Below are positions 11,529 to 58,575 of a stretch of 64,000 bases of DNA, piece by piece; within the stretch, counting starts at the first letter, position 1; each line of letters opens with the position of its first letter. The notes under the pieces were generated by a model. That model worked only from the letters and a program-made list of their open reading frames with translations. It was not told the origin of the DNA and made no database searches. The DNA comes from Ostreococcus lucimarinus. Its lineage: Eukaryota. Where the stretch lies: the NCBI GenBank assembly GCA_000092065.1, contig CP000589.1; one strand, 5' to 3'. The position numbers and the translations under genes were made by a program.

Positions 11529-12743
11529 TTAAATTTTCTCCAGGGCTTGAGCAATATCCGCTTCGATGTCGACGTAATCCTCAATCCCAGTCGAAAATCG
11601 AACGAGGTTATCCTTAATGCCAATCTCAGCGCGCTTTTCAGGACCCTGATCCCAATAAGAAACGACAGTCGGTTGTTCAATCAGCGACTCCACGCCACCG
11701 AGAGACGGCGCGATGTACGGAAGCTCGCAACTATCGATAAACTTTGCAGTCGCCCAAAGATCACCCTTGACCTCGAAAGATACCACCCCACCGAAACCTT
11801 TCATGTATTTTTTCGCAACTTCGTGGTCGCAGTGGCTCGGTAATCCCGGATAGTGCACTTTGTCAATCTTTGGATGCTTCTCGAGGTATTGAGCCAGTCT
11901 CATCGCGCTGTCGTTGTGGCGCTCGACTCGAAGCGACAAGGTCTTCAAACCTCGAAGAACCAAGTAAGCAGCGTGAGGATCGATGACACCACCCAAAATA
12001 TTATGAAATTGTCTGCACGCGGCGACTGCTTCCTTCTTACCGACGATGACACCGGCGAGAACGTCGTTGTGCCCGCCCATGAATTTCGACGCGCTGTGAA
12101 TCACCAAGTCGGCGCCAAAGTCGAGCGCGCGAGAGTTGCACGGCGTGGCAAAAGTACCATCGATGCACACGAGGCAACCCGTGGGCTTGCACAGGTTCAC
12201 GATTCGTTCGATATCGACGCAACGAAGGTACGGGTTCGTTGGTGATTCGGAAAAGTACAGCGAGCACTTGTTCTCCTTGAGCGCCTTTTCCAAGCCGTCG
12301 TAATCGGACGGATCGAGCACCGTGGACGTGATGCCCATCTTCGGCAAGAAAGTTTGAATGAATTGTCGAGTGCGTCTGTAGCAGTCCGTGGTGGTGACAA
12401 TGTGTCCACCGGCTGGGACGAGCGCGAGCAGCATAGTCGTCGCCGTGCACATGCCGGACGCGCTCAACAGAGCGTCTTCTCCGCCCTCGAGTTGGCGAAT
12501 CTTCTCTTCGCACGCCTTGGTCGTCGGATTCCCGTATCGACCGTACTCAAAGCTCCCATATCGTCCCTCTTGATACGCGATCAACTCTTCCGTGTCCTTG
12601 AAGTGGTACGTCGACGTGCACACGATCGGGGTCGTCAACGAGTCGGATACCCTCGGTCGCCCCTCCTTGCGTTCGCCTGCGTCAAAGTAACAACCGCGAT
12701 CATCACCGTCAGTCCGCGCGTCTCCCCCCTCGCGTCTCCTCAC
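11529..12743 (-). CDS. PLP-dependent Cys/Met-metabolism enzyme (cystathionine gamma-synthase/beta-lyase family)
   Basis: 404 aa with CGS/CBL family motifs: YGRYGNPT, SESPTNP, HSASKFMGGHNDVLAGV (PLP lysine), VESLIEQP, LVRFSTGIED. Confidence 0.8.
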   Translation of the reverse strand: MRRREGGDARTDGDDRGCYFDAGERKEGRPRVSDSLTTPIVCTSTYHFKDTEELIAYQEGRYGSFEYGRYGNPTTKACEEKIRQLEGGEDALLSASGMCTATTMLLALVPAGGHIVTTTDCYRRTRQFIQTFLPKMGITSTVLDPSDYDGLEKALKENKCSLYFSESPTNPYLRCVDIERIVNLCKPTGCLVCIDGTFATPCNSRALDFGADLVIHSASKFMGGHNDVLAGVIVGKKEAVAACRQFHNILGGVIDPHAAYLVLRGLKTLSLRVERHNDSAMRLAQYLEKHPKIDKVHYPGLPSHCDHEVAKKYMKGFGGVVSFEVKGDLWATAKFIDSCELPYIAPSLGGVESLIEQPTVVSYWDQGPEKRAEIGIKDNLVRFSTGIEDYVDIEADIAQALEKI

Positions 12744-13320
12744 TCGCGCATCACATTTTTATGCACCATCGCGCGTCCATCGCGCGTCGCTCCTCGTCGT
12801 TCGACGCACCGTTTTGCACGCACTGCGTCGAGTCGCCCCAAGGTTTCTCGCCGTTCGCCGCGCGCGTCGTCGCGCCTCGTCGTCCCGTCCCTCCTCGGCT
12901 CTTCCGCGTCGTCGCGCTCAGCTTCACCACCGTTCGCGCCTTCGCGCTCATCGCCGCGCTCATCCTACGCTCGAATCCCGTCGTCGTCGTCGTCGTCGTC
13001 AGTCCTCGCTCGGCTCGATCGCGTCGAACCTCTCGCGCCTCGGCTGGCCCTCGCGCGTCGTCGCGTCGTCGCGTCGTCTCGCGCGCCCGCGACGCGTCGG
13101 CGTCGTCCCGCGCGCGTCGCGCGTCGCGCGTCGCGTCGCGTCGCGTCGCTCGACGGACGCACCGCGCGCGTCGTCCCGGACTCGACCTCGATGTGCGGGC
13201 GCGACGCGACGCGGCGGGCGGCCGAGGATCGAGGATCGAGGATAAAAAAAAATCCGCGCGCGACGCGCATAAAGCGCGAACGATTCGCCATGAAGGCCGA
13301 AACGCGTGACGCGCGGTCGA

Positions 13321-13390
13321 TCTCGAACGACCGATCGATCGATCGATCGATCGATCGAACGAACGAACGATCGAACGATCGATCGACGGA
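13321..13390. repeat. Compound microsatellite (CGAT)n/(CGAA)n in intergenic GC-rich spacer
   Basis: cgatcgatcgatcgatcgatcgaacgaacgaacgatcgaacgatcgatcg read directly. Confidence 0.8.
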
Positions 13391-13465
13391 CGAACGATTC
13401 GAGGGCGCGGCGAAGCCGAACGCGCGGCGGTGAGGGTCGAAGGAACTACGGGTCTATGAATGTGA

Positions 13466-19892: not shown

Positions 19893-20102
19893 CGCGTCGC
19901 GCGGTGCCGACCGGCCGGGACGCCCGACGGGGAGTCAAAACACCCGGTCGCGCGGTCGCGCCGAAACACGAACGCGAAAACGGTCGCGACGCGGCGGGAA
20001 ACGCACGCGACCGACGCGTTCGAACGAGCGAGCGAACGCGCGCACACGCGAGCGCGCGAGCGACCGCGCTCGCGAACGAAAGGCGTCGACGGCGTCGGGT
20101 CG

Positions 20103-20175
20103 GGTCGCGCCGACGGCGAACGGCGAACGGCGAACGGCGAACGGCGAACGGCGAACGGCGAACGGCGAACGGCGA
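20103..20175. repeat. Heptanucleotide microsatellite (GAACGGC)n, about 10 units, in the 5' leader of the TPR gene
   Basis: gaacggcgaacggcgaacggcg... read directly. It lies 55 nt upstream of the ATG at 20229. Confidence 0.85.
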
Positions 20176-20228
20176 ACGACGGTTCGAGCGGGCGCGCGCG
20201 CGCGGAATCGAGTCGACCCGCGCGAGCG

Positions 20229-21530
20229 ATGGAAGAGAGCGATGGATGCGCGACGTCGCGAGACTTTGCGAGCGTGAAGATGGAATATTTTAAGACGCGC
20301 GCGCGCGAGGCGCTGGGGAACGGGAACTATAAGGAGGCGTACGCGACGTACACGAAGTGTCTGGAGGAACTCGCGCCGAGGGACGCGGGCGAACGCGCGA
20401 AACTGCTGTGTAACCGTTCGATGGCGTACGCCAAGTCTGCAAACTTTAAAGCGGCGCTGGAGGACGCGTCTGCGGCGGTGTCGTTGATGCCGACGTTCGC
20501 CAAGGGGTGGTGGCGCAAGGCGACCGCGCACGTGGGGCTGCGACAGTTCCCGGACGCGCTCGCCGCGTACAGGCAATCGTTCGAATGTCAGGACGAAGGC
20601 GACGCCGGCGTGATCGACGAGCACGTGAAAGCGATGAATAAAACGATCACTTCATTTACGCGCGAGCAACTTGCGAACTGGATTCTTGAAACTCTGCAAG
20701 ACATGGAGAATCGCGAGCTCATCGAGCACGCGCACCTCGAAAACGTCACGTCGTTGGAGATGGCAGAGGGAATGTTTTGTCAAATCAAAGGCATAAATGA
20801 AGGAAGCAAGCCGCGCGGCGACTACTATCGGTTCGTACAACATTGGAACGTACACGGTATGAGCGTGCCGATGGCTTACACCCAGCGTGCGAGCATGTAC
20901 CGCCACGCGTTGTGCTTTATGCAAGCTCGCGCCGACGCGGCGGCGGCGTTGACCTTGTTACAAGACGACGCATCGCTTTCTGACAAGGAAACGGAGATGA
21001 CCTTCACGTACAAAGTCGATGACTTCTCGCCTTTCAAGGAAGATACAGTCATCACCAAAGCTTGGGCGTGGTACGAGATGGGCAAGGCTTTTGAAGGGCG
21101 CGAAAATGGTGACACGCAAGCGGCGGCGAAGTGCTTCTCGGCGATAACGCACTTGGACACCAAGTATCCGATGTTCACGAACGCCTTCAAGAATGTGTGC
21201 AGTCGTATGACTGATGTCGAGGCTGGGAAAATATTGAGCGACATCAACGATCAGTACGGCGTGGCGGAGTATGGCGTGCGCACCGTTCCCGACGCTTTGG
21301 CAACTTACGTGGTCACCGTCAGCCTTCTCTTCAAAACTGGCAAGCTCGTCGGCTTCAACTCTAAAGTGCGAGACTCGTTTCGAGAAAACGTCGCGAAGGG
21401 TGCGAATGTCATCAAAGAAAAGGTACTCATAGAAAGCGTGCGCTCAAGGTTTCGTGGAGCGCCTGGTGTCGCGCTTTCGTATCGAATTCTCGCCGGCGAA
21501 GATAAATTAAACTCCGAGGTACGTGTTTGA
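20229..21530 (+). CDS. TPR-repeat protein (three N-terminal TPRs, Hop/Sti1-like) with uncharacterised C-terminal domain
   Basis: From the ATG at 20229: MEESDGCATSRDFASVKMEYFKTRAREALGNGNYKEAYATYTKCLEL...AKSANFKAALEDASAAVSLMPTFAKGWWRKATAHVGLRQFPDALAAYRQSFE. Upstream ORF sequence (19398-20228) is repeat/GC artefact. The 3' end carries a consensus donor (GAG|GTACGT) two codons before the stop. See findings. Confidence 0.6.
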   Translation: MEESDGCATSRDFASVKMEYFKTRAREALGNGNYKEAYATYTKCLEELAPRDAGERAKLLCNRSMAYAKSANFKAALEDASAAVSLMPTFAKGWWRKATAHVGLRQFPDALAAYRQSFECQDEGDAGVIDEHVKAMNKTITSFTREQLANWILETLQDMENRELIEHAHLENVTSLEMAEGMFCQIKGINEGSKPRGDYYRFVQHWNVHGMSVPMAYTQRASMYRHALCFMQARADAAAALTLLQDDASLSDKETEMTFTYKVDDFSPFKEDTVITKAWAWYEMGKAFEGRENGDTQAAAKCFSAITHLDTKYPMFTNAFKNVCSRMTDVEAGKILSDINDQYGVAEYGVRTVPDALATYVVTVSLLFKTGKLVGFNSKVRDSFRENVAKGANVIKEKVLIESVRSRFRGAPGVALSYRILAGEDKLNSEVRV

Positions 21531-21559
21531 TATCCGTCGTTCGGCGGCTGGTATTCACG

Positions 21560-22828
21560 ATGTTAGCGCAGAAAATGCTCGAGAAAATTCAAGCACACGA
21601 TTTGATGTTACTGGGTGGCGCAGAAACGGAGGCTGCGATGGGTACGGCGAGCGACGTGCAAGGTGAGTTAATTAAATGGAATAAATTGATGAGGAATTAA
21701 ATAATTCATCACGTAGGCGAGCTCAAGGAACTGAAGTCGGAGGACTTGGTAGATCGCATCAACAACTTACAAGGAATTATCTTATCGACATTAAAAAGTG
21801 GCAAGGAGATCGTAGTCGCGAAGCGACCACCAACCGACATGGAGCTTCCTTACAGAACGTACAAATTAGTTTACAACGACGGCACCCCGGTCGAACGAGT
21901 GAACAAAACGGGCTATCAAATGTCACAAGTGCACTACTCGGCGCAAGGAATGCACAAACGCGAAGTATGGGCTGAGATGATGGTGCGAACGACCGCAATT
22001 AATTATTTACAATTAAATTAAATTTGACACAGGACAAGTCTTGCCGATGGCACCAGAGCTCATCTGAGATAGCCGTTCAAGCGTTACAAGTGCCGAAGGA
22101 CGCCAAGAAGCAAGATTTGGATGTCTGCATCACGCCGTCGACCGTCAGAGTGTCATGTCGAAACACTGGACGCACGTACCTAGAGGTGATTTAAATTAAT
22201 TATTTCTCGACACGCAATTATTTACAATTCATTCGCTATCAGGGAGAGTTATTTCGACAAATCATACCAGAAGAGTCTGCGTGGGTTCACCTTGGTACGT
22301 GACAAATTAAATCAATCTTCACTATCGTTTCGCGATCGAAATTAATTATTTTGCTTCAGGCGGAGAGGATGACGACGGTTTCGTGTTGTACCTGAAGAAG
22401 ATGAACCTGGAGCTTTTCAAAGATAAGAACGCCGCGCCCAGTGATAGCTGGTGGGAACGGCTGTTTAATTCTCATGGAGATATTGCATTCGATGACTACG
22501 ATAAGGATTTCACGGATCTACCCACTCCTATCGCTGAGGTGAGTGTGCTTGTTTGTTTGTATCTCCTGTTTGAGCACCGCACTGACCAACTGCATTGCGC
22601 CCGACATAGTCCATCGCAGCCGCCGAAGATGCGTCAAGTGTACTGCAGGCGAGAGAAGAGGAAGAATATAAGGAGCGCGAAGCCGCACGCGAACGTGATG
22701 ACCTCCGAAAGCGCGAGAGACAAGTGCGCCTGGCTGAACTTCGCGGGGGCAAGTATTTGTCGTGGGTTGAGCTCGACAGACGCAATCCCGCGCCGAATCC
22801 TCTGGCACAACGCAGCGAGCCTGCGTAA
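21560..22828 (+). CDS. CS (p23/HSP20-like) domain protein, six exons with five short AT-rich introns
   Basis: Exons placed by eye: 21560-21662, 21717-21982, 22033-22185, 22243-22294, 22360-22538, 22610-22828. Introns are 54, 50, 57, 65 and 71 nt with GTGAGT/GTGCGA/GTGATT/GTACGT/GTGAGT donors and YAG acceptors, and phases are consistent. The spliced product contains a CS-domain signature (CRWHQSSSEIAVQALQVPKDAKKQDLDVCITPSTVRVS...YLEGELFRQIIPEESAWVHLGGEDDDGFVLYLKKMNLELFKDKNAAPSDSWWERLF) and a charged coiled-coil tail. Confidence 0.6.
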
Positions 22829-22983
22829 TTCCAGTATGTTTTCCACGATTTTGCCTCAAAATGACCATAACCAGCGCTTGTCGTGAAAGTTACTAATTTG
22901 TGCTTGAATTCTCGCCCGGTTGAACGAGCCGTCTAGACGTCCACGCGTTTGTCCCGTCGACACACGTCGAACTGTGCGCGAAC

Positions 22984-24128
22984 TCACGCCTTTTTCACTG
23001 TCCATAGCCAACTCCAGTATGTTTTGCTCGGATTTACTCCGTATCTTGCCCGTGGATCCGCCATGATCCGGAGCAATACTTCAACGACCCCCATGTCCTG
23101 TGTCACGAACTTGGGCACCTCAGCCGTGTGCATGAATGTGTGTTCGCGGATGAACACGACGGCCGTCGCGAGCAAAGACAGTAGCATGCATACCGTAGAA
23201 ATTGAGAAAAACATCGAAAGACAAAGCAACATGCTTTTCAAGTCGAAAAGAAGCACCTCTTCACCGAATAGATGACTGCACAACATCGTGTTGAAGCCCA
23301 AAATAGTGGATTGCCAAACCATGCGGTACCCCACAGTCCAGCACCACGCCTTCATGTAGCACCCCTTACAAGACGGACTGATCGTGGCAAATAGAAAATT
23401 ACCGCGATATTTGATGAAATTGTCGAGTTGAACTCGTGCGAGCCTTGGTTTATCGTCTATTTCGCTGGCTTGCATCGCAAGTCTGTGTTCGAGAATCGAG
23501 TCGCCAACGACGGTGTGTAGTATGGGTGGATCTCCCTGCGCGATAGGTGTGAGCGAACGTGTTCAGGGTGAAAAGCGAAAAGTCTTACGTGATAATAACC
23601 ATTATGAGACACGATAGAATGACAGATCGGACACGTTCCAGAGCCCTCTTGTCCTGTGAAAGGACACATCAATTTTGACTCTGCTTTCGTCAGCTCGTCG
23701 GAGTCTTCCAGTAGTGGAGCGGCGTTTTGCCATGGCTTTGTGTCGAAAACGGCACGAATTCCCTCGTATCGACCGGTTTCTAGCAAAACGAAACACGTAA
23801 CGCTAAAAAACATCATAAACGACGACACCAAGAGCGTCCACCATTCTGCAAAGTGTCGTGAGTGTCTCGAGTTTGACTGCGACATGGTCAACTCACCACA
23901 AAAGCTGTACAAGGCCGTGCTCTTTGGAGCCGTTAGGGCCGCCGCTAGGGCTGCAGTTGCGCTGATCGGGACTGAAATCTTGCCTCTCAAGGCATTCATG
24001 ATGCCAAAAGGCTGCATCATCACTTGCATAACGGTCATGGTTGGAGGCAAACTGTGACGTTCTCCCCTCGTTTCCAAAATTGAGACTTGATTAGACTCGT
24101 CTTGAGCGCGTGCGTCATGGGGCGACAA
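22984..24128 (-). CDS. Probable multi-exon gene for a small polytopic membrane protein (exon structure unresolved)
   Basis: Two adjacent minus-strand ORFs (23457..24128 and 22984..23475) in the low-GC island encode hydrophobic helices (WWTLLVSSFMMFFSVTCFVLL; LLCLSMFFSISTVCMLLSLLATAVVF) separated by segments that look intronic. No family recognised. Confidence 0.3.
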
Positions 24129-24241
24129 TTTCGCGCGTGCATCGATTTATCGATTTGTGAGTGAAGTAAATTATTACGGTGTAAGGAGTTGCGATGAAAG
24201 TTCGGGATGATTCTCATCTCACATTCAAACGATCTAAAGTT

Positions 24242-27141
24242 CTACTTTTCCATTTCCTCGACCCACTCCGGGTTCTTCTTTAAGATGACAACTCCCTCTA
24301 AAACAGGAGTCAAAGGAATGTATTTCTCGCTCGCCAGCTCCGCTCGATCGCCAACTGACAGAAGTACGGGAGTGTTATGTGTTTGGAAGCCAGTGATAGT
24401 CTTTGGTCGCCCAGCCTGTCCCACGACGTCAACAGCTTGACCGACTCGAACAGACACTTGCAACGGTTCCCCTTGTTCATCCACAGTCATGAGCATGCGC
24501 GGTTGGGCAGCGACAAACAAATAGTACAGCATGTAGTGATGCTTACCCAAAATCGTATGCTTCATGTCGAGTCCCGCAAAGGCGGTGATGATCAAACCAG
24601 CAAGTGCGACGTTTGACACCAGCGCTCGGTCCGAGTGCGCCGGAGAAAGCGTGAGCAAGCCCTTACCCATATGCACAAGACCCTGTGAGACACGCACGAG
24701 GAACAAACACGACGGCTCCTTGTAGTAGTAACTACTAAGTTGTCGTAGCTGCGAGGCCAAGCGCGCGTTGTTGGTTCCCGCTCCAACAATACCGAGGGCA
24801 AGGCACGCGGACTGCGCGACCTCTTCATTGCTATCGTGACTGAGTCTACCAAGTAAATCCGTGACATCAAGCTTCGGGTTGGAGGTGTGTAACAGCGCAA
24901 ATGCGAGAGGAACGGCTTTCTTTACTGCCGCGTCACCATACTGAATAAGGTGATCGTACGCACGGACCGCCATGTCTGCTCCAAGTTCTTCGCCCATGGC
25001 AACGAGAGCGATGCCCAACACAGCGACACTCTGGGGATCTGCAATCCATTCATCGCCTTCGTCAGCCTCCGGGTGCTCGCCGCACTTCGCCAAAAGAGAC
25101 TGAATTTTCAACACATTACCACTACCGGCGTACGCGCACACGTCCAGCACAGTTTGTAAATATCCGCTGATTCGCGCCGGGAGAGTTTTCGCAACTTCCA
25201 ATGTCGCTTCCACTTCCGCTTGACGCTGTAAGAAAAGTAAACCTAAACCTAGGCACAAAAAGTGCACAAACGTATTGTCGAGTTCTTTCTCAGGCCGCAT
25301 CATCAGCGTTTGGACGATGGTCGACACAGACTCTTCGTGGCACGTGCCGCAGAAGACGAGGCCAAGCGACAGCGCTGCGAAAGCAACGACTTCCAACGGA
25401 GCACTGTCATCGTGAATCACCTCCGTGAGAAGCTCGGAAACTTCTTCTTTTTGAGTACCAGCATATGCCAAACCAAGTCCCATTATCGCACCGATTCTTA
25501 CTGCGGAGTTTTCCTTGGTCACGCTCTCGTACAACAAACCGTAAGCGGGATCGCAATCGTTCCGCACATTAGTGTTGATGAGACCAACGGCAAGCAAGCC
25601 ACCCGCAACGATGTTCGGTTCCTCGCTATAGAGATAAGCATCGACTTGCGGTAGACCGCCTTCAACGTCCCAAAGCAAGATGCTCCCAAGGCTAGCAGCT
25701 GCTGACATTTTACCGTGATCTTTGTTTTTGAAAATCCAGCTCACATTAGATGTGGAACCATCCGCGGCTTCTGAAGAAGTTAAAAGCTTATCTTGTCCGA
25801 AACCGGCGTTCACGAACGCGTTCACGAATGTCGCTGCGAGGTTAGCACGAGCACTATCCACTGCGGCGCCCGAAGGAGCGCGAACTTCCATTAAATGCGA
25901 TTTGTAAATGTCCTCGGGTAACTTCGCCTCCATGACATCCAAGTCACGCGCCAGCATCAAGTAGTTCTTTGTCAAGTCTGAGTGACTCATGATGTTCTGC
26001 AGCATATCCAGGTTATCTTCTTCAACCTCACACGGGCCTTCATCGAGCTTCAACGGATGGCCGTGACGGGCCAACATGTAGCAAAGTTGCTTCTTGATGG
26101 CCAAGTTGGTGCACGCGTTGAACGTCTCTTCGATGATGCTCTGCTCGCAGAGCTTGAGCGCAACTCGCATAGCGTCTGGCATCTTCCCAACCTTCATGAA
26201 AATCGCATGCGCCGTCTTCAACACGATTGCATCTTCTGGCTCAGGAAGATAGTTGGCACAGCTGAACAGGTACAAGCATGTCCTCGAATAGTTGGCGTCG
26301 TTCACGTTGTCGAGCAAAATGTCGAGCTTCTCAACTTCCAATAGTAAATCGACAGCCTCTGGCTCGGCGTTGTGTTGCATGTGAAAAGGAACGATTTCGT
26401 GCACCAAACCCATGAGATCTTCCATCGAAGCCTTGTCCCCATCTTGCTCTATGCGACGATGGTATTCAGTGCCGATCTCTGCGGCGAGATTACGCACATA
26501 CTCGTGTCCCCAGTTCCCGATGTCCTCCTTTGACCCTAATAATCTGTACTTCAACGACTCTGGAATTTCCCCAGCCACCGGAGCGTTGGTCATGGACAAC
26601 AAGGAAATGATATCCGCCAGCAGTAACTTGTTTTCTCCATTCTTCGTTTTGTCGTACACCTCCTTCAAGGTTTGCAAGTGCGGTCTCAAAAACTTTAAAG
26701 GCTTTGGGACCGAAGTCATCGAACTGTTCGCATCGCCGTAAAGTACCGTATCATTTCGTCAGTATCGCGCATATCACTCACTCAATCGTCGCGTGATCCA
26801 CGATCGCGTCGTAATCGTTCATGCGACCTCGTCGCTCTCGCACTCGCGCACCTCGTCGCCGTTCGGATCTCGCGTCTCATCGTTTCAAGCGCCAATTTCG
26901 CCACCCCCGCCTTCGGATCGCTCGCTCGCATCACCATCAGTTCCAAGTTCTCCTTCAGCGCCGCGTCTTCTTCGCTCAACTCCACCTCGTTCTTCTTATC
27001 CTTTCTATTCTTCGTCGTCGATGACTTTCCATCGCCAACGACCCCATCGCCGTTTTTGTCGTCTTTGTCGTCGCCCGCGGCGTTCTTTCCTTTCTTCGCG
27101 CTCGCCGCGGCGACGGCGTCGTTGGGTTTCTTCGTCACCAT
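24242..27141 (-). CDS. RPN1: 26S proteasome regulatory subunit RPN1 (PSMD2), two exons
   Basis: Exon 1 is 26852-27141 (MVTKK...LSEEDAALKENLELMVMRASDPKAGVAKLALETMRREIRTAT), matching the RPN1 N-terminus. A 128-nt intron at 26724-26851 has a GTGCGC donor and AACAG acceptor. Exon 2 is 24242-26723, beginning S-MTSVPKPLKFLRPH as in human PSMD2, followed by PC repeats and a conserved C-terminus. The two ORFs in the track are in different frames, as the intron length predicts. Confidence 0.9.
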
Positions 27142-27395: not shown

Positions 27396-29444
27396 CTACT
27401 CTACGGAAGCCGCCGCTCGCGCGTCGAGCGTCTTGCGCTTGTGCGAGCTCACCGAGGTGTTCGCCTTCATCAACTCCCGAAGAACCATGGTGGCGTAAGA
27501 AGACGGGGGCAGAGTGAACTTCACCGTTACGGCACGTAAAGGGCCGTCTTCGATGGTGCGTTCGGTGATGCCATTGATGCGATCGAGATCGGTCAAAACC
27601 AAATCCGCCGCCGCGTCCGCGTACGAAATGACGGTGTGCGATACGTTTGTGGGTTTGAGAAAGCATCTACGGTAGTCACCGGTGAATGAGTTGATTGCGA
27701 ATTCACGAACCGAATGCGTCGTAGTATTCAAACTGATTCCATCCTCCGCGGCGAATCGATCGTAAACATCACCCAAATTTGTTGGGTACGTTATCGAGTT
27801 TCCAGGAAGCGGCAGCACCACGAGCGACGAGTCAATCGCACCCAAAGCGGCTTCCTCGGCTGTCACTACGCGAACCCTCGGCATACTCACCCGAGTATCG
27901 CCATTCATATCGTCTTCGCCTTCATCTCCGGCACAGTTTCCCTCTTCGAGCACTAAGTCACCTTCGACGACCGTGTTGACTCCGTACTTACGAATGCGCT
28001 CCGACACGACACGATTAAACAAGTATGCCTGGTAGGCGTGAATGTACATCAGTCTAATCTGCTTCGGCACGGCCAACAGCGATCCGACCAAGTCCGTGGA
28101 GCGAACTTTTGACATGCGCTCGAGCACACAGCGCTCTGCCGCGCACCAGCGTGGCATCAACTTCAAAGTCTCATTGGGATCCTTTGTTTCCATCCATTTC
28201 AAGCGCGCCTTCATGACATCGTCGCGCTCGCCTTCGCGCGGCAGCAGCAAAGCGTCGATCGCAGCTTGCCATTCGCCACGTAAAAGTTCAATTCCAATTT
28301 TATGCGTTGCGTGTTTGCCCCCAGCGCTACCAAATCTCTGCAAACCGTAGTAGTTGATGGTCCCTGAAGACTTGAGTGCGCGCACTGCCTCCTCCACGTT
28401 CCCGACGACGTCTGGGTCGATGCCTCGGAGCGTTATCTCAAACTCGTTCCCGCAATGGTCTCCGAAACCAAGTTGTCTGTCGACATACGTATAGTTACCA
28501 ATTTTACACCCATAAAGTACCAGCTTGGCCAACCTTTTCGCCCGAACTCTGTGCACGGTGACGTGTTGCGTTGTCACTCCGCGCTTGTCCTTCGTTCCGG
28601 CGACGCCAATAGACTTGAAGTTCACCTTCAAGGCCCGGGCTATGACGTTGAGCATCTCGTAAGACTCTTTGTTTTCTTTGCAAAACGCAAATCGCACATG
28701 TTCTGGAACGCCTTCGGGCCAAAAGTTTCCCACCGCTCGATGATCCATTGCCTCCACGCGCGTTCGCTTCTTGCCTTGCTTGACGGCGGCATGCACGCGC
28801 ACGCTCGAAGACGGCTTTTTCAAGTTCTTGAGAGCTTCCTTCTCTTCCTCGTTCGACTCCACGACGTTGTCCGTAGGTAATAAAAAGTGTTTCTTGAAAA
28901 ATTGATGAATTTGCGTCCGTTTCGCTTTATCCGTCGTCGGCTCGAGCACGAGCGGTTGGGGCGTTTCCGCCTTTCCATCGTGCGTCTTCTGACTTCGACG
29001 CGTCACCCCGGGAGTGGCTAAAAATTCTCTCAGTCGCCGCGCGTCCTCTGCACCGCACAGCGCTTCGAATTCTTTCATTGCCTCCTCAATACTCTCTTCT
29101 TTATCCCCCTCCACGTCATCCTTCGCCGCGTCCTCGTCCTCCGCTTCGTCGTCCGGCCCGCGCTCGCGTTCCATGGCTTGCACTTTCGCCTTCATCGCCT
29201 CAAACTTCTTCCGCTCTCGCGCGTCGATCTCTACATCGCACGTCGCGCTCAGTTCATTCAAAACCACCGCCTCACCGCTCTCGATGTCGATCTCCCGCAC
29301 GATGAAATCGCTGTAGCGTTCTTTCAGCACACCATCGAATCCGGCGGCGGCGTTGGCGTAGAGCTCGAGGCCGACGAGTCGCTCCTCCACGTGCTCGATC
29401 GCGTCGTTCTCGCGCCACGATGCCGACGACGGCGCGTGCGACAT
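27396..29444 (-). CDS. PUS7: tRNA pseudouridine synthase, TruD/Pus7 family
   Basis: TruD motifs: YSDFIVREID, catalytic-Asp region GVAGTKDKRGVTTQHVTV, FEITLRG, NYYGLQRFG. 682 aa, typical of eukaryotic Pus7. Confidence 0.8.
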   Translation of the reverse strand: MSHAPSSASWRENDAIEHVEERLVGLELYANAAAGFDGVLKERYSDFIVREIDIESGEAVVLNELSATCDVEIDARERKKFEAMKAKVQAMERERGPDDEAEDEDAAKDDVEGDKEESIEEAMKEFEALCGAEDARRLREFLATPGVTRRSQKTHDGKAETPQPLVLEPTTDKAKRTQIHQFFKKHFLLPTDNVVESNEEEKEALKNLKKPSSSVRVHAAVKQGKKRTRVEAMDHRAVGNFWPEGVPEHVRFAFCKENKESYEMLNVIARALKVNFKSIGVAGTKDKRGVTTQHVTVHRVRAKRLAKLVLYGCKIGNYTYVDRQLGFGDHCGNEFEITLRGIDPDVVGNVEEAVRALKSSGTINYYGLQRFGSAGGKHATHKIGIELLRGEWQAAIDALLLPREGERDDVMKARLKWMETKDPNETLKLMPRWCAAERCVLERMSKVRSTDLVGSLLAVPKQIRLMYIHAYQAYLFNRVVSERIRKYGVNTVVEGDLVLEEGNCAGDEGEDDMNGDTRVSMPRVRVVTAEEAALGAIDSSLVVLPLPGNSITYPTNLGDVYDRFAAEDGISLNTTTHSVREFAINSFTGDYRRCFLKPTNVSHTVISYADAAADLVLTDLDRINGITERTIEDGPLRAVTVKFTLPPSSYATMVLRELMKANTSVSSHKRKTLDARAAASVE

Positions 29445-44880: not shown

Positions 44881-45564
44881 GTGTCATCACATTCTCATCA
44901 ACCCGTCCACGTCTCTCCAGGCTCCTGGTTCACGGCGTGTGCGATAGACGACGCGCTGCGCGAGCTCGAGGACGAGTCGCTGGGGGGAGGCTCGAGGACG
45001 AGTCGCTGGGGGGAGTCGCTGGGGCGAGTCGCTGGGGGGAGGCTGGGGGGTCGCTGGGCGTGCGTGACGGCGTGCGCGGCGTTTCTGGGAGACTTGGAAC
45101 TCGTGCGGTTGGCGCGCGATTGCGGGCACGAGTGGGACGCGTACACGTGCGCGTTTGCCGCCTATAGTGGAAACTTGGAGTGTTTGAAGTATGCGCACGA
45201 GCACGGGTGTCCTTGGAACAAGTCGACGTGCGCATGTACCGCCTATACTGGACATTTGGGGTGTTTGAAGTACGGGAGGATGGTCCACGGCGTCGACGTC
45301 GAGTCCCACGCCTCGACGTCGGGTCCCACTCGCTCCGCGAGCGCTCGAACGCACGCCCTCCGATCGCGCACTGGACTGCCCTTTTCGCAGTGCAGCGCCA
45401 CGCACGCGCATCCTCTGTCGTCAACGTACGCCTCGAGGTGTACGCCATCCATCGATTCGTCTCCCCACGCGGGTTTGCTCACGTGGATATACGCCCCCGG
45501 TGGGGTCAAGAAACGAGTCTCCCACCCTCGCGCGCGGTCCGCGAACGCGTCGCCGAGACGTTGA
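44881..45564 (+). CDS. Hypothetical protein with degenerate ankyrin-like repeats
   Basis: Repeats of the type CAFAAYSGNLECLKYAHEHGCPWNKSTCACTAYTGHLGCLKY (the AA..GHLE.LK.A.E.GCPW ankyrin variant). The N-terminus overlaps a GC-rich minisatellite and no in-frame ATG is evident, so the gene model is unreliable. Confidence 0.25.
   Translation: MSSHSHQPVHVSPGSWFTACAIDDALRELEDESLGGGSRTSRWGESLGRVAGGRLGGRWACVTACAAFLGDLELVRLARDCGHEWDAYTCAFAAYSGNLECLKYAHEHGCPWNKSTCACTAYTGHLGCLKYGRMVHGVDVESHASTSGPTRSASARTHALRSRTGLPFSQCSATHAHPLSSTYASRCTPSIDSSPHAGLLTWIYAPGGVKKRVSHPRARSANASPRR
44955..45060. repeat. GC-rich minisatellite (GACGAGTCGCTGGGGGGAGGCTCGAG / GTCGCTGGGG units)
   Basis: Direct tandem copies read in sequence at the 5' end of the ankyrin-like ORF. 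Confidence 0.7.
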
Positions 45565-46297
45565 AACTCACGATCGAGCGCGGCGCGGTCGGACATGCCA
45601 GCGGCGCGCGGGGCAGGCGTCGAGTGAGGTGATTAAATGTCAAACAAATCGTAATAAAATAAAGAAGCGCCGCCGCCTCACGGCGCGCGCGGGGGAAGCG
45701 ACCCGAATGGACGCGCGGGCACGGCGCGCAGCGGTCGGTGGTGCTCGAAGCGCGCGGGCGCGCGCGGGGCGCACGCGAAGCGCACACATCGTCCCAGGGC
45801 GACGCACACGGCACACATGACGTCGGCGGGGGGCTCACGACGCGACGCGGTGTGACCCGACGACACGGGGGGGGCACACGCAGGTTGAGAATCGTGACGA
45901 CATGATGACGACATTGTGCCGGTTCATGTCGTCGTTTGGTTGTACCGAGTGAAGGGATTGGTCCGTCCAGAACGCGACGCGGCGCGCGACGGGGATCGCG
46001 TCGACGGACGACGATGGCTCTCGTCGGGACGCGATGCCCCGAATTCCACGTGATCCAGCTCGCGGCGGACGGCACGCGGATGGAACGGGTCAGTCTCACC
46101 GAAGCCGTCCGAGGGGGGCCCGCTGTGATTCACTTTTACAACTCTGGGTGAGGAGGATGCCGCAGGACGACTCTCACGTCGACGTAGTCCCCTAAACGTT
46201 TCAACACGTTGTAATTCATTCGAGGTTTTGGTATTCTTCTATGGCGATAAGTAATACAATCAAATCAATGCGTAACTGCTAACTGCCGCGGCGGCGT

Positions 46298-46995: not shown

Positions 46996-47808
46996 ATGAC
47001 GCGAGCGGCGACGGAAGCGACGACGGAAGCGACGACGACGCCGGACGACTGCGAGGCGAAGAAAGTCGTCGCGGATGCTGCGGAGGTGGATACGAAAATG
47101 GACGCCGAGGCGAACGCGTACGACGACGATGCGCGCGGTGCGGGTGGGAAGATGAGAAAGGACGGTGCCGCGCGCGCCCGAACGGGCGCTCGGATGACGC
47201 CGTACGCGCGACAGCGGCCGGTGATGACGTCTCGGGTGGGAAATCCCGCGGTAAACGCGGACACAAAAGTGTACGTCGGCAATCTTCCGTACGGGTGCTC
47301 GTGGCAGGACTTGAAGGATCACTTCTCGAACGCCATGGGCGGCGAGAGCGTGCGATTCGCCGATATTCTGACTTCGCGCGATGGACGATCGAAAGGATGC
47401 GGCATCGTGACGTTCAATTCGAGCGAAGACGCGAAGAAAGCTATAGAAACGATGCATGACACGGAGATTGGTGAACGAAAAATCTTCGTTCGGGAGGATC
47501 GTGAAGGAGAAAGAGGAAACGACCTTCGAAATCGGATCGGCCCCTCGGCGACGTCCCCGGACGCGTCAGTCTACGTCGGGAACCTTCCTTGGAGCACTCG
47601 ATGGCAGGAGTTGAAAGATATTTTCCGCAAAGTCGGCAATGTCGCGCACGCTGACGTGACGATGGGCTTTGACGGACGATCCAGAGGTTGGGGCGTGGTG
47701 ACGTTTATGGACCCCCAGTGCGCCCAAGTCGCCATCGAAAGGTTGAACGGTACAATGTTGAACGATCGTGCTCTCATCGTCCGCAGGGATGAACGAGCTC
47801 GAAGCTAA
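46996..47808 (+). CDS. RNA-binding protein with two RRM domains
   Basis: RNP-2/RNP-1 motifs twice: KVYVGNLPY ... KGCGIVTF, and SVYVGNLPW ... RGWGVVTF. The upstream part of the ORF (from 46885) is probably 5' leader. Confidence 0.75.
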   Translation: MTRAATEATTEATTTPDDCEAKKVVADAAEVDTKMDAEANAYDDDARGAGGKMRKDGAARARTGARMTPYARQRPVMTSRVGNPAVNADTKVYVGNLPYGCSWQDLKDHFSNAMGGESVRFADILTSRDGRSKGCGIVTFNSSEDAKKAIETMHDTEIGERKIFVREDREGERGNDLRNRIGPSATSPDASVYVGNLPWSTRWQELKDIFRKVGNVAHADVTMGFDGRSRGWGVVTFMDPQCAQVAIERLNGTMLNDRALIVRRDERARS

Positions 47809-47957
47809 AAATGTAAGCATCAATAGTAAAGCCTGTAAGGCTAGTAAGTCTTTAAGAGAAGTGTACCGCACTACCACTCTTACCGCACTCTCTCTCTTGG
47901 CCAGGCTTCACATCACGTCGCGCAATTGTCCCGCGTCGCGCGCGCGTGCGCGCGCGC

Positions 47958-53163: not shown

Positions 53164-53256
53164 CGCATCAACGACGACGACGTCGATGATATATTTTAGT
53201 CATTAGCAGTCAACATCTACCGTTGTTACAATAGCACGAGCTAGAATAGTCTAAAA

Positions 53257-53514
53257 TCAATCGTCTAAATTCGCGGGTGAATTTCCCAGATACGGCGGCG
53301 GCCACATCGGCGGATCGTACCCTTTATCGCCAAACGGATTACATCGCATGATTCGCCACGCCGTCAGCACGAATCCCTTACTCGTACCATATTTCCTATA
53401 CGCCTGACGCGCGTACTCCGAGCACGTCGGCACGAAACGACAACTCTTCGGCAATATCGGCGACACCTCGCGCTTGTAAAAGTCTAACAACCCCATCGCG
53501 ATTTTCATCGACAT
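53257..53514 (-). CDS. yidD: YidD homolog (membrane protein insertion efficiency factor, UPF0161/haemolytic domain)
   Basis: C-terminal 85 aa of ORF 53257..54030: MSMKIAMGLLDFYKREVSPILPKSCRFVPTCSEYARQAYRKYGTSKGFVLTAWRIMRCNPFGDKGYDPP. The CRF.PTCS.Y, G...G, RI.RC.P motif series matches E. coli YidD. A longer acidic N-terminal extension (start at 53592) is possible. Confidence 0.7.
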   Translation of the reverse strand: MSMKIAMGLLDFYKREVSPILPKSCRFVPTCSEYARQAYRKYGTSKGFVLTAWRIMRCNPFGDKGYDPPMWPPPYLGNSPANLDD

Positions 53515-55132: not shown

Positions 55133-55545
55133 GAGGAATAATATTTCAAACGAGTAGACACACAAAGCGAGCGAGATGTAGTACAAACAAACCAGCAGTC
55201 CTTGGAAGCGCGCGCGATGTGGCTGCCGCAAAAAAATCGCGGTCGCAAACGCGAAGGTGATGGGCTTAAAAAAATTGTTGTATATCGAACAGAAGTTTCG
55301 ATCTTCTGACCTTTGGGTTATGGGCCCAACGCGCTTCCACTGCGCCAGTTCGATTTCTTCGTCGCCGTATTGCGGGCTACAATATATCCTCGTACAGCCT
55401 AAATTTCAAACAGTACCCACCCCGTCGCCTTCATCGCGTAAAGTTACGGGTTTCTTCCCGAAGTCAACGGCGGGCGACGGACGCGCGTCGTCGTCCGCAC
55501 TCGCCCCCCCGACGTCGCTCGGATCGCGACCGCGCGCGCGCGCCG

Positions 55546-57657: not shown

Positions 57658-58575
57658 TCACTTGTCTTTTGCCTTCTCCTTGTCATCCGACGACGCGGCT
57701 TTTTGTGTCGTCTGCACGCGCTCTTCCTCCGCCTTTTCGTCCGCTTCCGAAGGCTTGTACACGATGACGGGCTTTTTGCATCGATGCAAACAATAGTTGC
57801 ACACGCTCCCGATGAAAAATTCACGAATGCGGCCTTTTGACGATGAAGCGAGAACGACGGCGACGGCGTCGTCGATGAGCGTGGACTTTTCCACCATGAT
57901 CTCTCCCACGGATGACACATTCGTGTCGTACGGGACGATGTCGATTTTGTACGCGATCGAGGCTTCGTCGAGCAGTGGGACGACGTGTTCGTCCATCCAT
58001 CTGAGCGCTTCGTTTCGCCACGCCGTTTCCTGCGCATCAAATACAACAGTACGTCAATCCTCGGTTCTCATCTCGTCCGATCGACGTAGATGCGAAACAA
58101 CCTGCTCTCGCGCGTGGAACACTTCTCGGCGAAGCATCGGCGATGACTGATAGAGGTATCGCATTGCGGCTCTGCGGACGAACGAACGAACGAAAAAACG
58201 ATGATTAATCACTCGCCTGTTCTTCATCTGGCACGGTGACTGGGTAGAAATCGCCCATCAACGCGCTCACGCTGTCCGAAGCCGGAAAAGTTCTGCGCCA
58301 CACGTCAACGAAACGAACGACGCGAGCGCGAGCGCGCGCGCGACGCCTCGAAACGAAACGCACCCCGGAATCACGTGCACCACCCGGCACTCGTCTCGTT
58401 CGCTCGTCGCGAGATTTTCGATGAACCATCGAACCATTGGAACCGTGGTCTTCGCGCAGTCGACGCCCAAGATCCAAATCTTCCGCGCGCGTCCCGCTCG
58501 ACACGCGCACGCCGCGCCGCACGAGCAATTTTCATCGCAGTCCCCTCCGCACGCGCACGTCGCGCAGTCGCACAT
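57658..58575 (-). CDS. Universal stress protein (UspA) family gene, at least two exons, with metallothionein-like Cys-rich N-terminus
   Basis: 5' exon (ATG at 58575): MCDCATCACGGDCDENCSCGAACACRAGRARKIWILGVDCAKTTVPMVRWFIENLATSERDECRVVHVIPG, where the Usp N-terminal beta-strand/ATP-loop context follows a Cys-rich leader. 3' exon (ends 57658): EALRWMDEHVVPLLDEASIAYKIDIVPYDTNVSSVGEIMVEKSTLIDDAVAVVLASSSKGRIREFFIGSVCNYCLHRCKKPVIVYKP, the Usp C-terminal half with the G-x2-G-x9-G-S motif. Intron boundaries between 57997 and 58340 are not resolved. Confidence 0.55.

What the first reader, a model, noticed from the sequence alone, without database searches (positions are those of the whole stretch)
20600..26850. 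Lower-GC island that contains all the clearly intron-bearing genes of the window
From about 20.6 kb to 26.8 kb the sequence is visibly more AT-rich (about 50% GC by eye versus above 60% elsewhere). It holds the 3' half of the TPR gene, a 6-exon CS-domain gene, a multi-exon membrane-protein gene and two-exon RPN1. Outside this island essentially every gene is a single uninterrupted ORF. In Mamiellophyceae, atypical low-GC outlier chromosome regions with altered intron content are known. This may be a small example, or simply a local isochore boundary.
Basis: seen in the sequence. Interest (0 to 1): 0.6.

Follow-up and report, generated by a model that had tools for sequence, protein, structure and literature searches.

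The report
Conserved low-GC pocket, AT-rich introns
A real, genus-conserved dip in GC content on an ordinary Ostreococcus chromosome is centred on two neighbouring genes that carry short, partly very AT-rich introns like those of the alga's "outlier" chromosome; it is a small local oddity, not part of an outlier region, and it does not hold all the intron-bearing genes of the window.

Summary
The window is Ostreococcus (lucimarinus-like) DNA from a standard chromosome. The GC dip is real. Window 20600-26850 is 50.4% GC against 59.5% for the rest, and it is the lowest 6.25-kb stretch. Other long stretches reach 52-53%, because GC3 falls from 0.82 at gene starts to about 0.55 in gene bodies.

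After correcting for that gradient, the TPR gene and RPN1 are ordinary. The anomaly is a 2.7-kb core (21531-24241, 48.5% GC) made of two convergent genes. One is a six-exon CS-domain gene and the other a three-exon membrane-protein gene.

All proposed introns are supported by homology, and a spliced transcript-like contig from a sister lineage supports the five CS introns. Four CS introns are 50-65 nt and 26-32% GC. They lack the ACTGAC branch motif and carry an AATTAAT/AATTAAAT motif found nowhere else in the window.

Gene order, introns, motif and GC dip recur in six other Ostreococcus-type lineages. They do not recur in Bathycoccus- or Micromonas-type loci.

Two genes outside the island also have introns (12.7 kb and 58 kb), so the "all intron-bearing genes" claim fails. 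The locus resembles the big outlier chromosome's low-GC region (BOC1) in composition and intron type. It fails BOC1 membership on chromosome, size and collinearity.

The parts
20600..26850 (.).
21531..24241 (.). Anomalous core, 48.5% GC. It holds two convergent genes and their short spacers, and has the lowest gradient-corrected residual in the window.
20229..21530 (+). TPR-repeat gene, a single ORF of 433 aa. Its 3' part lies in the island. GC3 is normal for position (dGC3 -0.015).
21560..22828 (+). CS-domain gene, 323 aa. Exons: 21560-21662, 21717-21982, 22033-22185, 22243-22294, 22360-22538, 22610-22828. The ATG lies 29 bp after the TPR stop codon. GC3 is 0.58.
   Evidence: One search gives the model. 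I corrected the intron 5 acceptor to 22609 by reading frame. Pfam CS domain. Gap-free alignment across junctions 2-5. Spliced contig L010 against genomic L015-L017.
21663..21716 (+). CS intron 1: 54 nt, 26% GC, GTGAGT..TAG, no ACTGAC, two copies of AATTAAAT
21983..22032 (+). CS intron 2: 50 nt, 30% GC, carries AATTAATTATTT and AATTAAAT, no ACTGAC
22186..22242 (+). CS intron 3: 57 nt, 28% GC. Its 5' block AAATTAATTATTTC is conserved across lineages. No ACTGAC.
22295..22359 (+). CS intron 4: 65 nt, 32% GC, carries AATTAAAT and AATTAATTATTT, no ACTGAC
22539..22609 (+). CS intron 5: 71 nt, 51% GC, GTGAGTG, ACTGAC 24 nt before the 3' splice site. A short intron of canonical type.
22984..24038 (-). 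Membrane-protein gene of unknown family, 316 aa. Exons: 24038-23897, 23845-23589, 23535-22984. GC3 is 0.57.
   Evidence: It is not TMEM135 and has no Pfam hit.
23846..23896 (-). Membrane-gene intron 1: 51 nt, 51% GC, GTGAGT..CAG, no ACTGAC. An intron at this position is also present in Bathycoccus-type loci.
23536..23588 (-). Membrane-gene intron 2: 53 nt, 51% GC, GTAAGA..CAG, no ACTGAC. The junction GYYH|GDPP is bridged by an uninterrupted Bathycoccus-type ORF.
24242..27141 (-). RPN1 (26S proteasome subunit). Exon 1 is 27141-26852 and exon 2 is 26723-24242. GC3 is normal for a long gene (dGC3 -0.035).
26724..26851 (-). RPN1 intron: 128 nt, 55% GC, GTGCGCG, ACTGAC 35 nt before the 3' splice site. 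Canonical Mamiellophyceae type.
12677..12809 (-). Counter-example outside the island. Canonical 133-nt intron (GTGCGTC, GACTGACG, 62% GC) in the Cys/Met-metabolism PLP-enzyme gene. Exons are 12963-12810 and 12676-11529.
57658..58575 (-). Counter-example outside the island. Universal-stress-protein gene with introns at 58363-58293 (71 nt, GT-AG) and 58216-58030 (187 nt, apparent GC-AG donor GCGAGT). The spliced product extends the Usp domain match from model positions 103-141 to 7-141.

Best explanation
SHOWN.
- The trough has two layers.
- Layer 1 is the genome-wide pattern of this alga. GC peaks of 62-74% sit at every divergent promoter, and GC3 falls from about 0.82 in the first 100 codons to a plateau of 0.52-0.60.
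- Between the divergent promoters at about 20.0 kb and 29.5 kb there are 9 kb of genes oriented -> -> <- <- <-. The 3' part of the TPR gene and the long RPN1 body are therefore at the ordinary gene-body level.
- Layer 2 is a 2.7-kb core of two convergent genes, the CS gene and the membrane-protein gene.
- These two genes lack the usual 5' GC enrichment altogether. Their GC3 is 0.57-0.58 from the first exon on.
- They are separated from their neighbours by AT-rich spacers.
- They are interrupted by seven short introns. Six lack the canonical ACTGAC branch motif and four are 26-32% GC.
- This state has been held in at least seven Ostreococcus-type lineages, even though synonymous sites between them are saturated.
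- It is absent from Bathycoccus- and Micromonas-type orthologous loci that share the local gene order.

INFERRED.
- The core is a small pocket where the force that keeps Ostreococcus DNA far above its AT-biased mutational equilibrium is locally weak.
- That force is most likely GC-biased gene conversion tied to recombination initiation near promoters.
- Synonymous sites therefore sit at the gene-body baseline, and unconstrained intron and spacer sequence drifts towards or below the equilibrium GC of about 36%.
- The AT-rich, branch-motif-less introns are probably recognised by intron definition through their sharp drop in GC and AU-rich elements, as proposed for BOC1 introns.
- On this reading the locus shows the BOC1 syndrome at kilobase scale, arisen in place, without being BOC1.
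For: - GC profile, with peaks at promoters and troughs at 3' ends.
- GC3 gradient over 34 non-island genes: 0.82, 0.72, 0.68, 0.64, 0.60, then plateau.
- After correction, CS and the membrane gene are the two lowest of 38 genes (dGC3 -0.164 each). TPR is -0.015 and RPN1 -0.035.
- Their GC3 of 0.58 and 0.57 equals the plateau of the 1735-aa and 1631-aa genes.
- Exon 1 of both genes is already low, at 0.59 and 0.64 against 0.84 in intronless genes.
- The island has the lowest model residual in the window.
- Gene models.
- Intron classes.
- Collinearity and the same GC dip (minimum 0.42-0.45 at the CS gene) in L056, L057/L061, L014, L016/L013, L021, L067, L040.
- CS and the membrane gene have the lowest GC3 of ten syntenic genes in all seven Ostreococcus-type loci, but not in Bathycoccus-type loci.
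- 4-fold sites are only 36% identical between lineages, so composition is maintained and not merely inherited.
- Bathycoccus- and Micromonas-type CS genes are uninterrupted and show no dip.
- Literature, PMC8557840: mutation in Ostreococcus is GC->AT biased with an equilibrium GC of 0.36 against 0.60 observed. gBGC is invoked to explain this, and low GC is used there as a marker of suppressed recombination.
- Literature, PMC3879977: the drop in GC across the splice site is proposed to aid recognition of BOC1 introns.
Against: - No recombination, gene-conversion or expression data exist for this locus.
- Population diversity among the near-identical metagenome copies is too low to test a cold spot. 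Pi is 0-0.002 almost everywhere.
- Three of the seven core introns are about 51% GC. Drift to AT is therefore not uniform, although these may be constrained by splice signals.
- The AATTAAT/AATTAAAT motif is kept in four introns across lineages. Passive drift does not predict this.
- The window has only about 43 genes, so the gradient model is rough.
- g43973 (-0.118) and g29579 (-0.111) are also fairly low outside the core.
Confidence: 0.5

Rival explanations
1. Weak selection on codon usage. The CS gene and the membrane gene are lowly expressed, so GC-ending preferred codons are not maintained. The intron features would be unrelated.
For: The deficit is clear at third codon positions and is gene-specific and conserved. 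Neighbouring housekeeping genes such as RFC and RPN1 exon 1 have higher GC3.
Against: - It does not explain the AT-rich spacers (island intergenic 47.8% against 62.5% elsewhere) or the 26-32% GC introns.
- A transcript-like contig of the CS gene was assembled from a public run, so the gene is expressed in a sister lineage.
- In O. lucimarinus, intron-containing genes tend to be more highly expressed, not less (PMC2367439).
Confidence: 0.15
2. Nothing special. The trough is the chance juxtaposition of a gene 3' end, a long conserved gene body and two small genes that happen to be AT-richer, within a genome whose GC oscillates strongly anyway.
For: - The raw GC of the island (50.4%) is only slightly below that of another 6.25-kb stretch (52.2%).
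- TPR and RPN1 are normal after correction.
- The chance that the two lowest genes are adjacent is about 2/38 (my arithmetic).
- The chance of a run of three intron genes is about 0.03, and the region was picked post hoc.
Against: - The same dip, the same rank order of GC3, the same intron positions and the same intron motif persist in seven lineages with saturated synonymous sites.
- Low GC3, AT-rich spacers and non-canonical introns coincide in the same 2.7 kb.
Confidence: 0.15
3. A fragment of the BOC1 or mating-type region that was translocated to a standard chromosome and has kept its composition and introns.
For: GC is 48.5% against 47% for BOC1. Four introns meet the BOC1 sequence criteria (PMC3879977). 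Translocations into and out of the mating-type region are discussed in PMC8557840.
Against: - TPR-CS adjacency is shared with Bathycoccus- and Micromonas-type loci, and membrane gene-RPN1 adjacency with Bathycoccus-type loci. In those loci the genes sit in normal-GC context and the CS gene is uninterrupted.
- The gene order therefore predates the low-GC state.
- No transposable elements or rearrangement scars were seen, and collinearity is perfect over ten genes.
Confidence: 0.06
4. Intron barrier effect, as described for rice and Arabidopsis. GC enrichment is confined to the part of a gene upstream of its first intron, so genes with early introns stay GC-poor.
For: PMC4684703 reports step changes in GC at introns. 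RPN1 GC3 drops from 0.76 in exon 1 to 0.64 in the next 100 codons.
Against: - Exon 1 of the CS gene and the membrane gene is already low, at 0.59 and 0.64 against 0.84.
- The Cys/Met gene downstream of its intron is normal (0.75 against 0.78), and Usp is only slightly low.
Confidence: 0.05
5. A chromosomal element such as a centromere or replication origin that requires AT-rich DNA.
For: One conserved AT-rich trough on a small chromosome. Centromeres of Ostreococcus are not described in the papers searched.
Against: The trough is fully occupied by conserved, spliced genes. There is no gene-free AT-rich block, the minimum 1-kb GC is 45%, and there are no repeats.
Confidence: 0.03

Closest known systems
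BOC1, the low-GC region of the big outlier chromosome of Mamiellales (chr 2 in Ostreococcus; candidate mating-type locus)
   Same: GC of about 47-50%, depressed GC3, several introns per gene, short AT-rich introns without a branch-point motif, and conservation of the low-GC state across species.
   Different: - It lies on a standard chromosome.
- It is 2.7-6 kb rather than 320-575 kb.
- It holds two to four genes rather than hundreds.
- It is strictly collinear across lineages, whereas BOC1 is shuffled.
- No transposable elements were seen.
- The state is absent in sister genera, whereas BOC1 is shared by all Mamiellales.
- Expression, methylation and 3D insulation are unknown.
BOC1-type introns (PMC3879977, PMC3491373, PMC2483917)
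   Same: CS introns 1-4 are under 75 nt, under 43% GC, GT-AG, have GTRNGT-like donors and no ACTGAC. Several sit in one gene and their positions are conserved between species.
   Different: They lie outside BOC1, which is part of the published definition. They share an AATTAAT/AATTAAAT motif, whereas BOC1 introns are reported to have no conserved motif. Whether BOC1 introns carry this motif was not testable here.
Canonical Mamiellophyceae introns (donor GTGCGT(G), (G)ACTGAC(G) branch site, usually one near the 5' end of a gene)
   Same: The RPN1 intron, the Cys/Met-gene intron and CS intron 5 carry ACTGAC 24-35 nt before the 3' splice site. The first two have GTGCG donors (CS intron 5 has GTGAGTG) and sit near the 5' end of their genes.
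   Different: CS introns 1-4, both membrane-gene introns and both Usp introns lack ACTGAC. About 13% of EST-confirmed introns outside chr 2 in O. lucimarinus also lack it (PMC2483917).
5'-3' GC gradients of GC-rich plant genomes, attributed to GC-biased gene conversion
   Same: There is a steep fall of GC3 from gene start to gene body, and GC peaks sit at promoters.
   Different: This pattern was measured here on a single 64-kb window of an alga. My searches found no paper describing it for Ostreococcus. The intron-barrier component was not supported.
Introner elements of Micromonas (repeated, mobile introns)
   Same: Four introns in one gene share a sequence motif. They are absent from orthologues in sister genera. 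Introns in the three other green-algal orthologues compared sit at other positions.
   Different: - They are very short and AT-rich, whereas introners favour high-GC regions and are longer.
- Similarity is limited to an 8-12 nt AT-only motif that could arise by slippage.
- Only one gene was seen, and no genome-wide family has been demonstrated.

Membership tests
BOC1 low-GC outlier region | Lies in the low-GC sub-region of the big outlier chromosome (O. lucimarinus chr 2:345,000-709,200) | tested here: not met
   The window's Pus7 protein clusters at 90% identity or more with XP_001419728 of O. lucimarinus, which lies on a 670,853-bp record. That record is shorter than the BOC1 end coordinate on chr 2. 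This assumes collinearity with strain CCE9901.
BOC1 low-GC outlier region | Hundreds of kilobases and hundreds of genes (320-575 kb in Ostreococcus) | tested here: not met
   The core is 2.7 kb with 2 genes. The whole trough is 6.3 kb with 4 genes.
BOC1 low-GC outlier region | GC about 9-17 points below the rest of the genome (46-50% in Ostreococcus) | tested here: met
   50.4% for the island and 48.5% for the core, against 59.5% for the rest of the window.
BOC1 low-GC outlier region | Loss of collinearity between species | tested here: not met
   Ten genes are in identical order and orientation in seven Ostreococcus-type lineages.
BOC1 low-GC outlier region | Present in all Mamiellales genera | tested here: not met
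   There is no dip at the orthologous CS loci of Bathycoccus-type (L022, L032, L062) or Micromonas-type (L011, L046) contigs.
BOC1 low-GC outlier region | Elevated expression, hypomethylation and TAD-like insulation | not testable with these tools
   Needs RNA-seq, methylation and Hi-C data (10.1101/2025.04.21.649811).
BOC1-type intron | Short (under 75 nt; 40-65 nt typical) | tested here: met
   CS introns 1-5 are 54, 50, 57, 65 and 71 nt. The membrane-gene introns are 51 and 53 nt.
BOC1-type intron | AT-rich (under 43% GC) | tested here: inconclusive
   Met by CS introns 1-4 (26-32%). Not met by CS intron 5 or the two membrane-gene introns (51%).
BOC1-type intron | No discernible branch-point motif and a weak GTRNGT donor | tested here: met
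   There is no NCTRAY or ACTGAC in CS introns 1-4 or the membrane-gene introns 1-2. Donors are GTGAGT, GTGCGA, GTGATT, GTACGT, GTGAGT and GTAAGA.
BOC1-type intron | Located inside the BOC1 region (part of the published definition) | tested here: not met
   See the chromosome assignment above.
Canonical Mamiellophyceae intron | Donor GTGCGT(G) and an ACTGAC branch motif 20-50 nt upstream of the acceptor | tested here: met
   - RPN1: GTGCGCG, ACTGAC at -35.
- Cys/Met gene: GTGCGTC, GACTGACG at -32.
- CS intron 5: ACTGAC at -24, with a GTGAGTG donor.
- Not met by the other eight introns.
Introner element (mobile repeated intron) | Many copies with extended sequence similarity at novel positions across the genome | not testable with these tools
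   Only an 8-12 nt AT motif is shared by four introns of one gene. No Ostreococcus genome could be scanned.

The most novel reading that the evidence does not exclude
The BOC1 syndrome consists of low GC3 plus several short, AT-rich, branch-motif-less introns per gene. On this reading it is not tied to the outlier or mating-type chromosome. It arose in place, in the Ostreococcus stem lineage, in a 2.7-kb pocket of a standard chromosome.

The four AT-rich CS introns are absent from Bathycoccus- and Micromonas-type orthologues and are not shared in position with three other green algae. They would be related gains carrying a dedicated AATTAAT/AATTAAAT element. That element could be a cis-signal for splicing such introns or the relic of a small inserted element.

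The locus would then be a natural, minimal experiment on what causes BOC1's features.
Probability: 0.15. Interest if true: 0.6.

Novelty: new variant of a known kind. Interest (0 to 1): 0.35.

Why it matters
BOC1's low GC and odd introns are usually explained by suppressed recombination over a large sex-related region. A kilobase-scale, collinear pocket on an ordinary chromosome with the same composition and intron type shows two things. These features can exist without the large-scale context. The two intron classes of Ostreococcus are also not strictly partitioned by chromosome.

This gives a compact locus at which the gBGC or recombination explanation, and the splicing of branch-motif-less AT-rich introns, could be tested.

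There is also a practical point. Prokaryote-style gene calls on metagenome contigs break these genes into fragments. No named Ostreococcus protein was returned for the CS gene, so such loci are easy to mis-annotate.

Tried and rejected
- An automatic GT..AG spliced-ORF scan of the whole window gave 143 candidates, mostly false, and was unusable. I replaced it with gene-by-gene checks of ORF tiling and Pfam domain coverage.
- The ORF break in the AhpC-TSA_2 gene at 57001-57003 looked like an intron. It is an in-frame TGA in the motif RRPG-U-VLCR, most likely selenocysteine.
- I first called the membrane gene TMEM135-like, because a Micromonas-type neighbour of the CS gene has that domain. The two proteins are unrelated.
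- A conserved RNA fold in the AT-rich introns is rejected. Z-scores range from -3.2 to +1.4 with no common structure.
- The intron-barrier explanation is not supported.
- I compared intron positions in three other green-algal orthologues (L072-L074). None coincides exactly with an Ostreococcus intron, so neither gain nor retention is proven.
- Population diversity across 22 kb in six metagenome copies is too low to test for a recombination cold spot. Those copies were also selected for an identical Pus7 protein.
- A look-up of the O. lucimarinus reference locus through P0006 failed because the gene is not on record.
- Derelle et al. 2006 is not held in the library.
- The centromere idea found no supporting literature.
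- I did not attempt to fetch BOC1 contigs. No BOC1 protein sequence was available from the window, and the chance of success was low.

Full report
**Source of the window.**
- The 682-aa TruD/Pus7 ORF (27396-29444, minus strand) is found unchanged on many marine-metagenome contigs.
- It belongs to a 90%-identity cluster that includes XP_001419728 of Ostreococcus lucimarinus CCE9901, which lies on a 670,853-bp record.
- BOC1 of that species is chr 2:345,000-709,200 at 47% GC, and the small outlier chromosome is 149 kb (PMC3491373 and its supplement).
- The window therefore comes from a standard chromosome of a lucimarinus-like Ostreococcus. This is an inference that assumes collinearity with the reference strain.

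**Is the GC dip real?**
- Window 20600-26850 is 50.4% GC against 59.5% for the rest, and it is the lowest 6.25-kb stretch.
- GC in this window oscillates between 0.50 and 0.74. Two other long stretches are nearly as low: 47251-53501 at 52.2% and 36.3-39.8 kb at 53.4%. 'Above 60% elsewhere' is therefore an overstatement.
- An ORF tiling backed by Pfam matches and metagenome gene calls gives about 43 genes.
- A GC peak sits at every head-to-head gene pair and a trough at every tail-to-tail pair.
- In 34 genes outside the island, GC3 is 0.82 in the first 100 codons, then 0.72, 0.68, 0.64 and 0.60, and then settles at 0.52-0.60.

**What remains after allowing for the gradient?**
- A distance-from-ATG model fitted outside the island predicts 58.0% for it, so 7.6 points remain unexplained.
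- The island has the lowest residual in the window. It is -0.077 at 6.25 kb (sd 0.029) and -0.119 at 2.5 kb (sd 0.036), centred on 21.6-24.1 kb.
- At third codon positions, TPR (-0.015) and RPN1 (-0.035) are ordinary.
- The CS gene and the membrane gene are the two lowest of 38 genes, at -0.164 each.
- Their GC3 of 0.58 and 0.57 equals the body plateau of the two giant genes.
- The real anomaly is therefore a 2.7-kb core, 21531-24241, at 48.5% GC.

**Gene models.**
- *CS gene.* It has six exons (with the last acceptor corrected to 22609 by reading frame). The product has a CS domain.
  - It aligns without gaps across junctions 2-5 with uninterrupted homologues.
  - The 1,022-bp contig L010 comes from a public sequencing run. 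It matches genomic loci of a sister lineage (L015-L017) at 98-100% identity.
  - The match is in six blocks, and the five gaps are the GT..AG introns. This is transcript-level evidence in a congener.
- *Membrane gene.* It has three exons.
  - Junction 2 (GYYH|GDPP) is bridged by an uninterrupted Bathycoccus-type ORF.
  - Intron 1 is shared in position with Bathycoccus-type loci.
  - The protein has no Pfam match and is not TMEM135.
- *RPN1.* It has one 128-nt intron. The spliced N-terminus aligns gap-free with a plant RPN1 structure (8amz_Z) through ...EIRTATSSMTSVPKPLKF....

**Introns outside the island.**
- The Cys/Met-metabolism PLP-enzyme gene has a 133-nt intron at 12677-12809. The spliced product extends the Pfam match to model position 1.
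- The Usp gene has two introns. The spliced product extends the domain match from positions 103-141 to 7-141.
- The island therefore holds 8 of at least 11 introns and 3 of at least 5 intron-bearing genes.
- This is a clear enrichment. A run of three or more adjacent intron genes has P about 0.03, and a Fisher-type count of 3/4 against 2/39 gives about 0.003 by my own arithmetic. Both tests are post hoc. It is not 'all' the intron genes.
- An Ank-like ORF at 44881-45564 has no ATG upstream of its repeat region and may be a further split gene or a pseudogene.

**Two kinds of intron.**
- Published work describes canonical Mamiellophyceae introns with a GTGCGT(G) donor and a (G)ACTGAC(G) branch site. 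These are seen in 87% of confirmed O. lucimarinus introns outside chr 2.
- Chr 2/BOC1 introns are described as 40-65 nt, AT-rich, with a weak GTRNGT donor and no branch motif. They are defined as under 75 nt, under 43% GC and located in BOC1 (PMC2483917, PMC3879977, PMC3491373).
- In the window, the RPN1 intron, the Cys/Met-gene intron and CS intron 5 carry ACTGAC 24-35 nt before the acceptor.
- CS introns 1-4 (50-65 nt, 26-32% GC) and both membrane-gene introns (51-53 nt, 51% GC) do not.
- Genes with canonical introns outside the island have normal GC3. Exon 1 of the CS gene and the membrane gene is already low. An intron-barrier effect of the kind reported in rice and Arabidopsis (PMC4684703) therefore does not explain the core.
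- Low GC goes with the non-canonical intron type, not with introns as such.

**An unexpected motif.**
- AATTAATTA occurs three times and AATTAAAT five times in the 64-kb window. All occurrences are in CS introns 1-4.
- AATTAA with its complement occurs 12 times in these introns, against 0.86 in shuffles.
- AT-rich 3' spacers elsewhere in the window lack the motif.
- In six further lineages its density is about 10 per kb inside the CS gene against about 0.1 per kb in 16 kb of flanks.
- This holds although 4-fold sites are only 36% identical and the inner part of intron 5 is only 27% identical.
- No common RNA fold is predicted.
- The motif could be an AU-rich splicing element, (AATT)n-type slippage, or a trace of common origin. 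I could not test whether BOC1 introns carry it.

**Comparative evidence.**
- A scan of metagenome contigs with the CS alignment returned 64 loci.
- Seven Ostreococcus-type lineages keep the order RFC-JmjC-WW-TPR-CS-membrane gene-RPN1-Pus7-g29579-S49. In these, RPN1 is 90-100% identical to the window and the CS-domain protein 61-100%.
- All seven show the same GC profile, with a minimum of 0.42-0.45 at the CS gene.
- All five CS introns sit at the same positions in every lineage.
- The CS gene and the membrane gene have the lowest GC3 of the ten genes in each lineage.
- Bathycoccus-type loci (41-46% GC) and Micromonas-type loci (67% GC) keep TPR-CS adjacency. Bathycoccus-type loci also keep membrane gene-RPN1 adjacency.
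- In those loci the CS gene is a single ORF over the region holding introns 2-5, and there is no local dip.
- The taxon labels for these loci are my inference from GC content and similarity.
- The gene order therefore predates the low-GC state, which argues against import from BOC1.
- Introns in three other green-algal orthologues lie at different codons. Gain in the Ostreococcus stem is plausible. Loss of all introns at once in the sister genera, by reverse-transcript replacement, is not excluded.

**Mechanism.**
- *Shown:* the composite anatomy of the trough, the intron classes, conservation within the genus and absence outside it.
- *Inferred:* Ostreococcus DNA is held at about 60% GC against an AT-biased mutational equilibrium of about 36%, a gap attributed to GC-biased gene conversion. 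Low GC is taken as a sign of reduced recombination in BOC1 (PMC8557840).
- The promoter-centred GC peaks fit conversion tracts that start near promoters.
- The CS ATG is 29 bp from the TPR stop codon. The membrane gene starts about 200 bp from the RPN1 stop codon.
- Neither gene has a 5' GC peak, and unconstrained intron sequence has fallen to 26-32% GC.
- I therefore favour a small, conserved pocket with a weak GC-enriching force (confidence 0.5). Its AT-rich introns would be recognised by their drop in GC, as proposed for BOC1 introns (PMC3879977).
- Rivals: weak codon selection in lowly expressed genes (0.15), ordinary heterogeneity (0.15), a translocated BOC1 fragment (0.06), an intron barrier (0.05), and a centromere or origin (0.03).

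**Verdict.**
- The claim of exclusivity for intron-bearing genes is wrong.
- The outlier-region interpretation is right in kind and wrong in membership.
- The finding is a modest new variant of a known phenomenon. It would interest specialists in Mamiellophyceae genomes and intron evolution.

Noticed in passing
window 56824-57447 (+), TGA at 57001-57003: An AhpC-TSA_2 (SelU/PRXL2-like) gene is interrupted by an in-frame TGA in the redox motif RRPG-U-VLCR. This is most likely selenocysteine and not an intron. Rfam at gathering threshold found no SECIS element.
   Followed up: partly
window 46014-46151 (+), TGA at 46149-46151: A short ORF MALVGTRCPEF...AVIHFYNSG is followed by TGA and then GGC (a U-x-x-C-like context). 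It lies in an otherwise unassigned 730-bp gap. It may be a second selenoprotein exon.
   Followed up: no
whole window: GC is strikingly regular. Peaks of 62-74% sit at every divergent promoter and troughs of about 50-55% at every convergent 3' end. GC3 falls from 0.82 to about 0.55 along genes. My searches found no paper describing this for Ostreococcus.
   Followed up: partly
window 58030-58216 (-): The second Usp intron appears to use a GC-AG pair (donor GCGAGT). An alternative model with a 70-nt middle exon could not be put in frame.
   Followed up: partly
window 44881-45564 (+) and 45243-45596 (-): An ankyrin-like repeat ORF has no ATG before its repeats. It overlaps a plausible 117-aa ORF on the other strand. 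It may be a split gene, a pseudogene or a mis-called strand.
   Followed up: partly
window 55283-55354 (-): A tRNA gene (Rfam RF00005, 57.5 bits) lies in the gap between the glutamate-5-kinase-like gene and the prefoldin gene.
   Followed up: no
window 20090-20180 and 13330-13400: There are simple repeats in GC-rich promoter or 5' regions: about ten copies of GGCGAAC upstream of the TPR gene, and GATC/GTTC repeats upstream of the Cys/Met gene.
   Followed up: no
window 19.4-20.4 kb and 33.4-35.4 kb; L001-L006: Among near-identical metagenome copies, almost all SNPs and indels fall in GC-rich promoter or 5' regions. Pi is 0.005-0.025 there against 0.002 or less elsewhere.
   Followed up: partly
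L001-L006, loci corresponding to window 30.3-33.7 kb: Gene calls for the S49 peptidase and alpha/beta-hydrolase pair differ between contigs (612 + 483 aa against 411 + 686 aa). This suggests indel or frame differences in the GC-rich divergent promoter region.
   Followed up: no
L062 1911-1975; L063 1441-1516: Bathycoccus-type and Micromonas-type CS orthologues each have one short gap near residue 225-231. These may be introns, and they sit at positions not used in Ostreococcus. The Bathycoccus-type gap is T-rich (28% GC) without the AATTAA motif.
   Followed up: partly
results: No protein named as Ostreococcus, Micromonas or Bathycoccus was returned for the CS-domain protein. The gene may be missing or mis-modelled in reference annotations.
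   Followed up: no
L067 2836-3888 against window 22984-24038: The membrane protein is only 86% identical between two close lineages in which RPN1 is 99% and TPR 97% identical. It is a fast-evolving gene.
   Followed up: no
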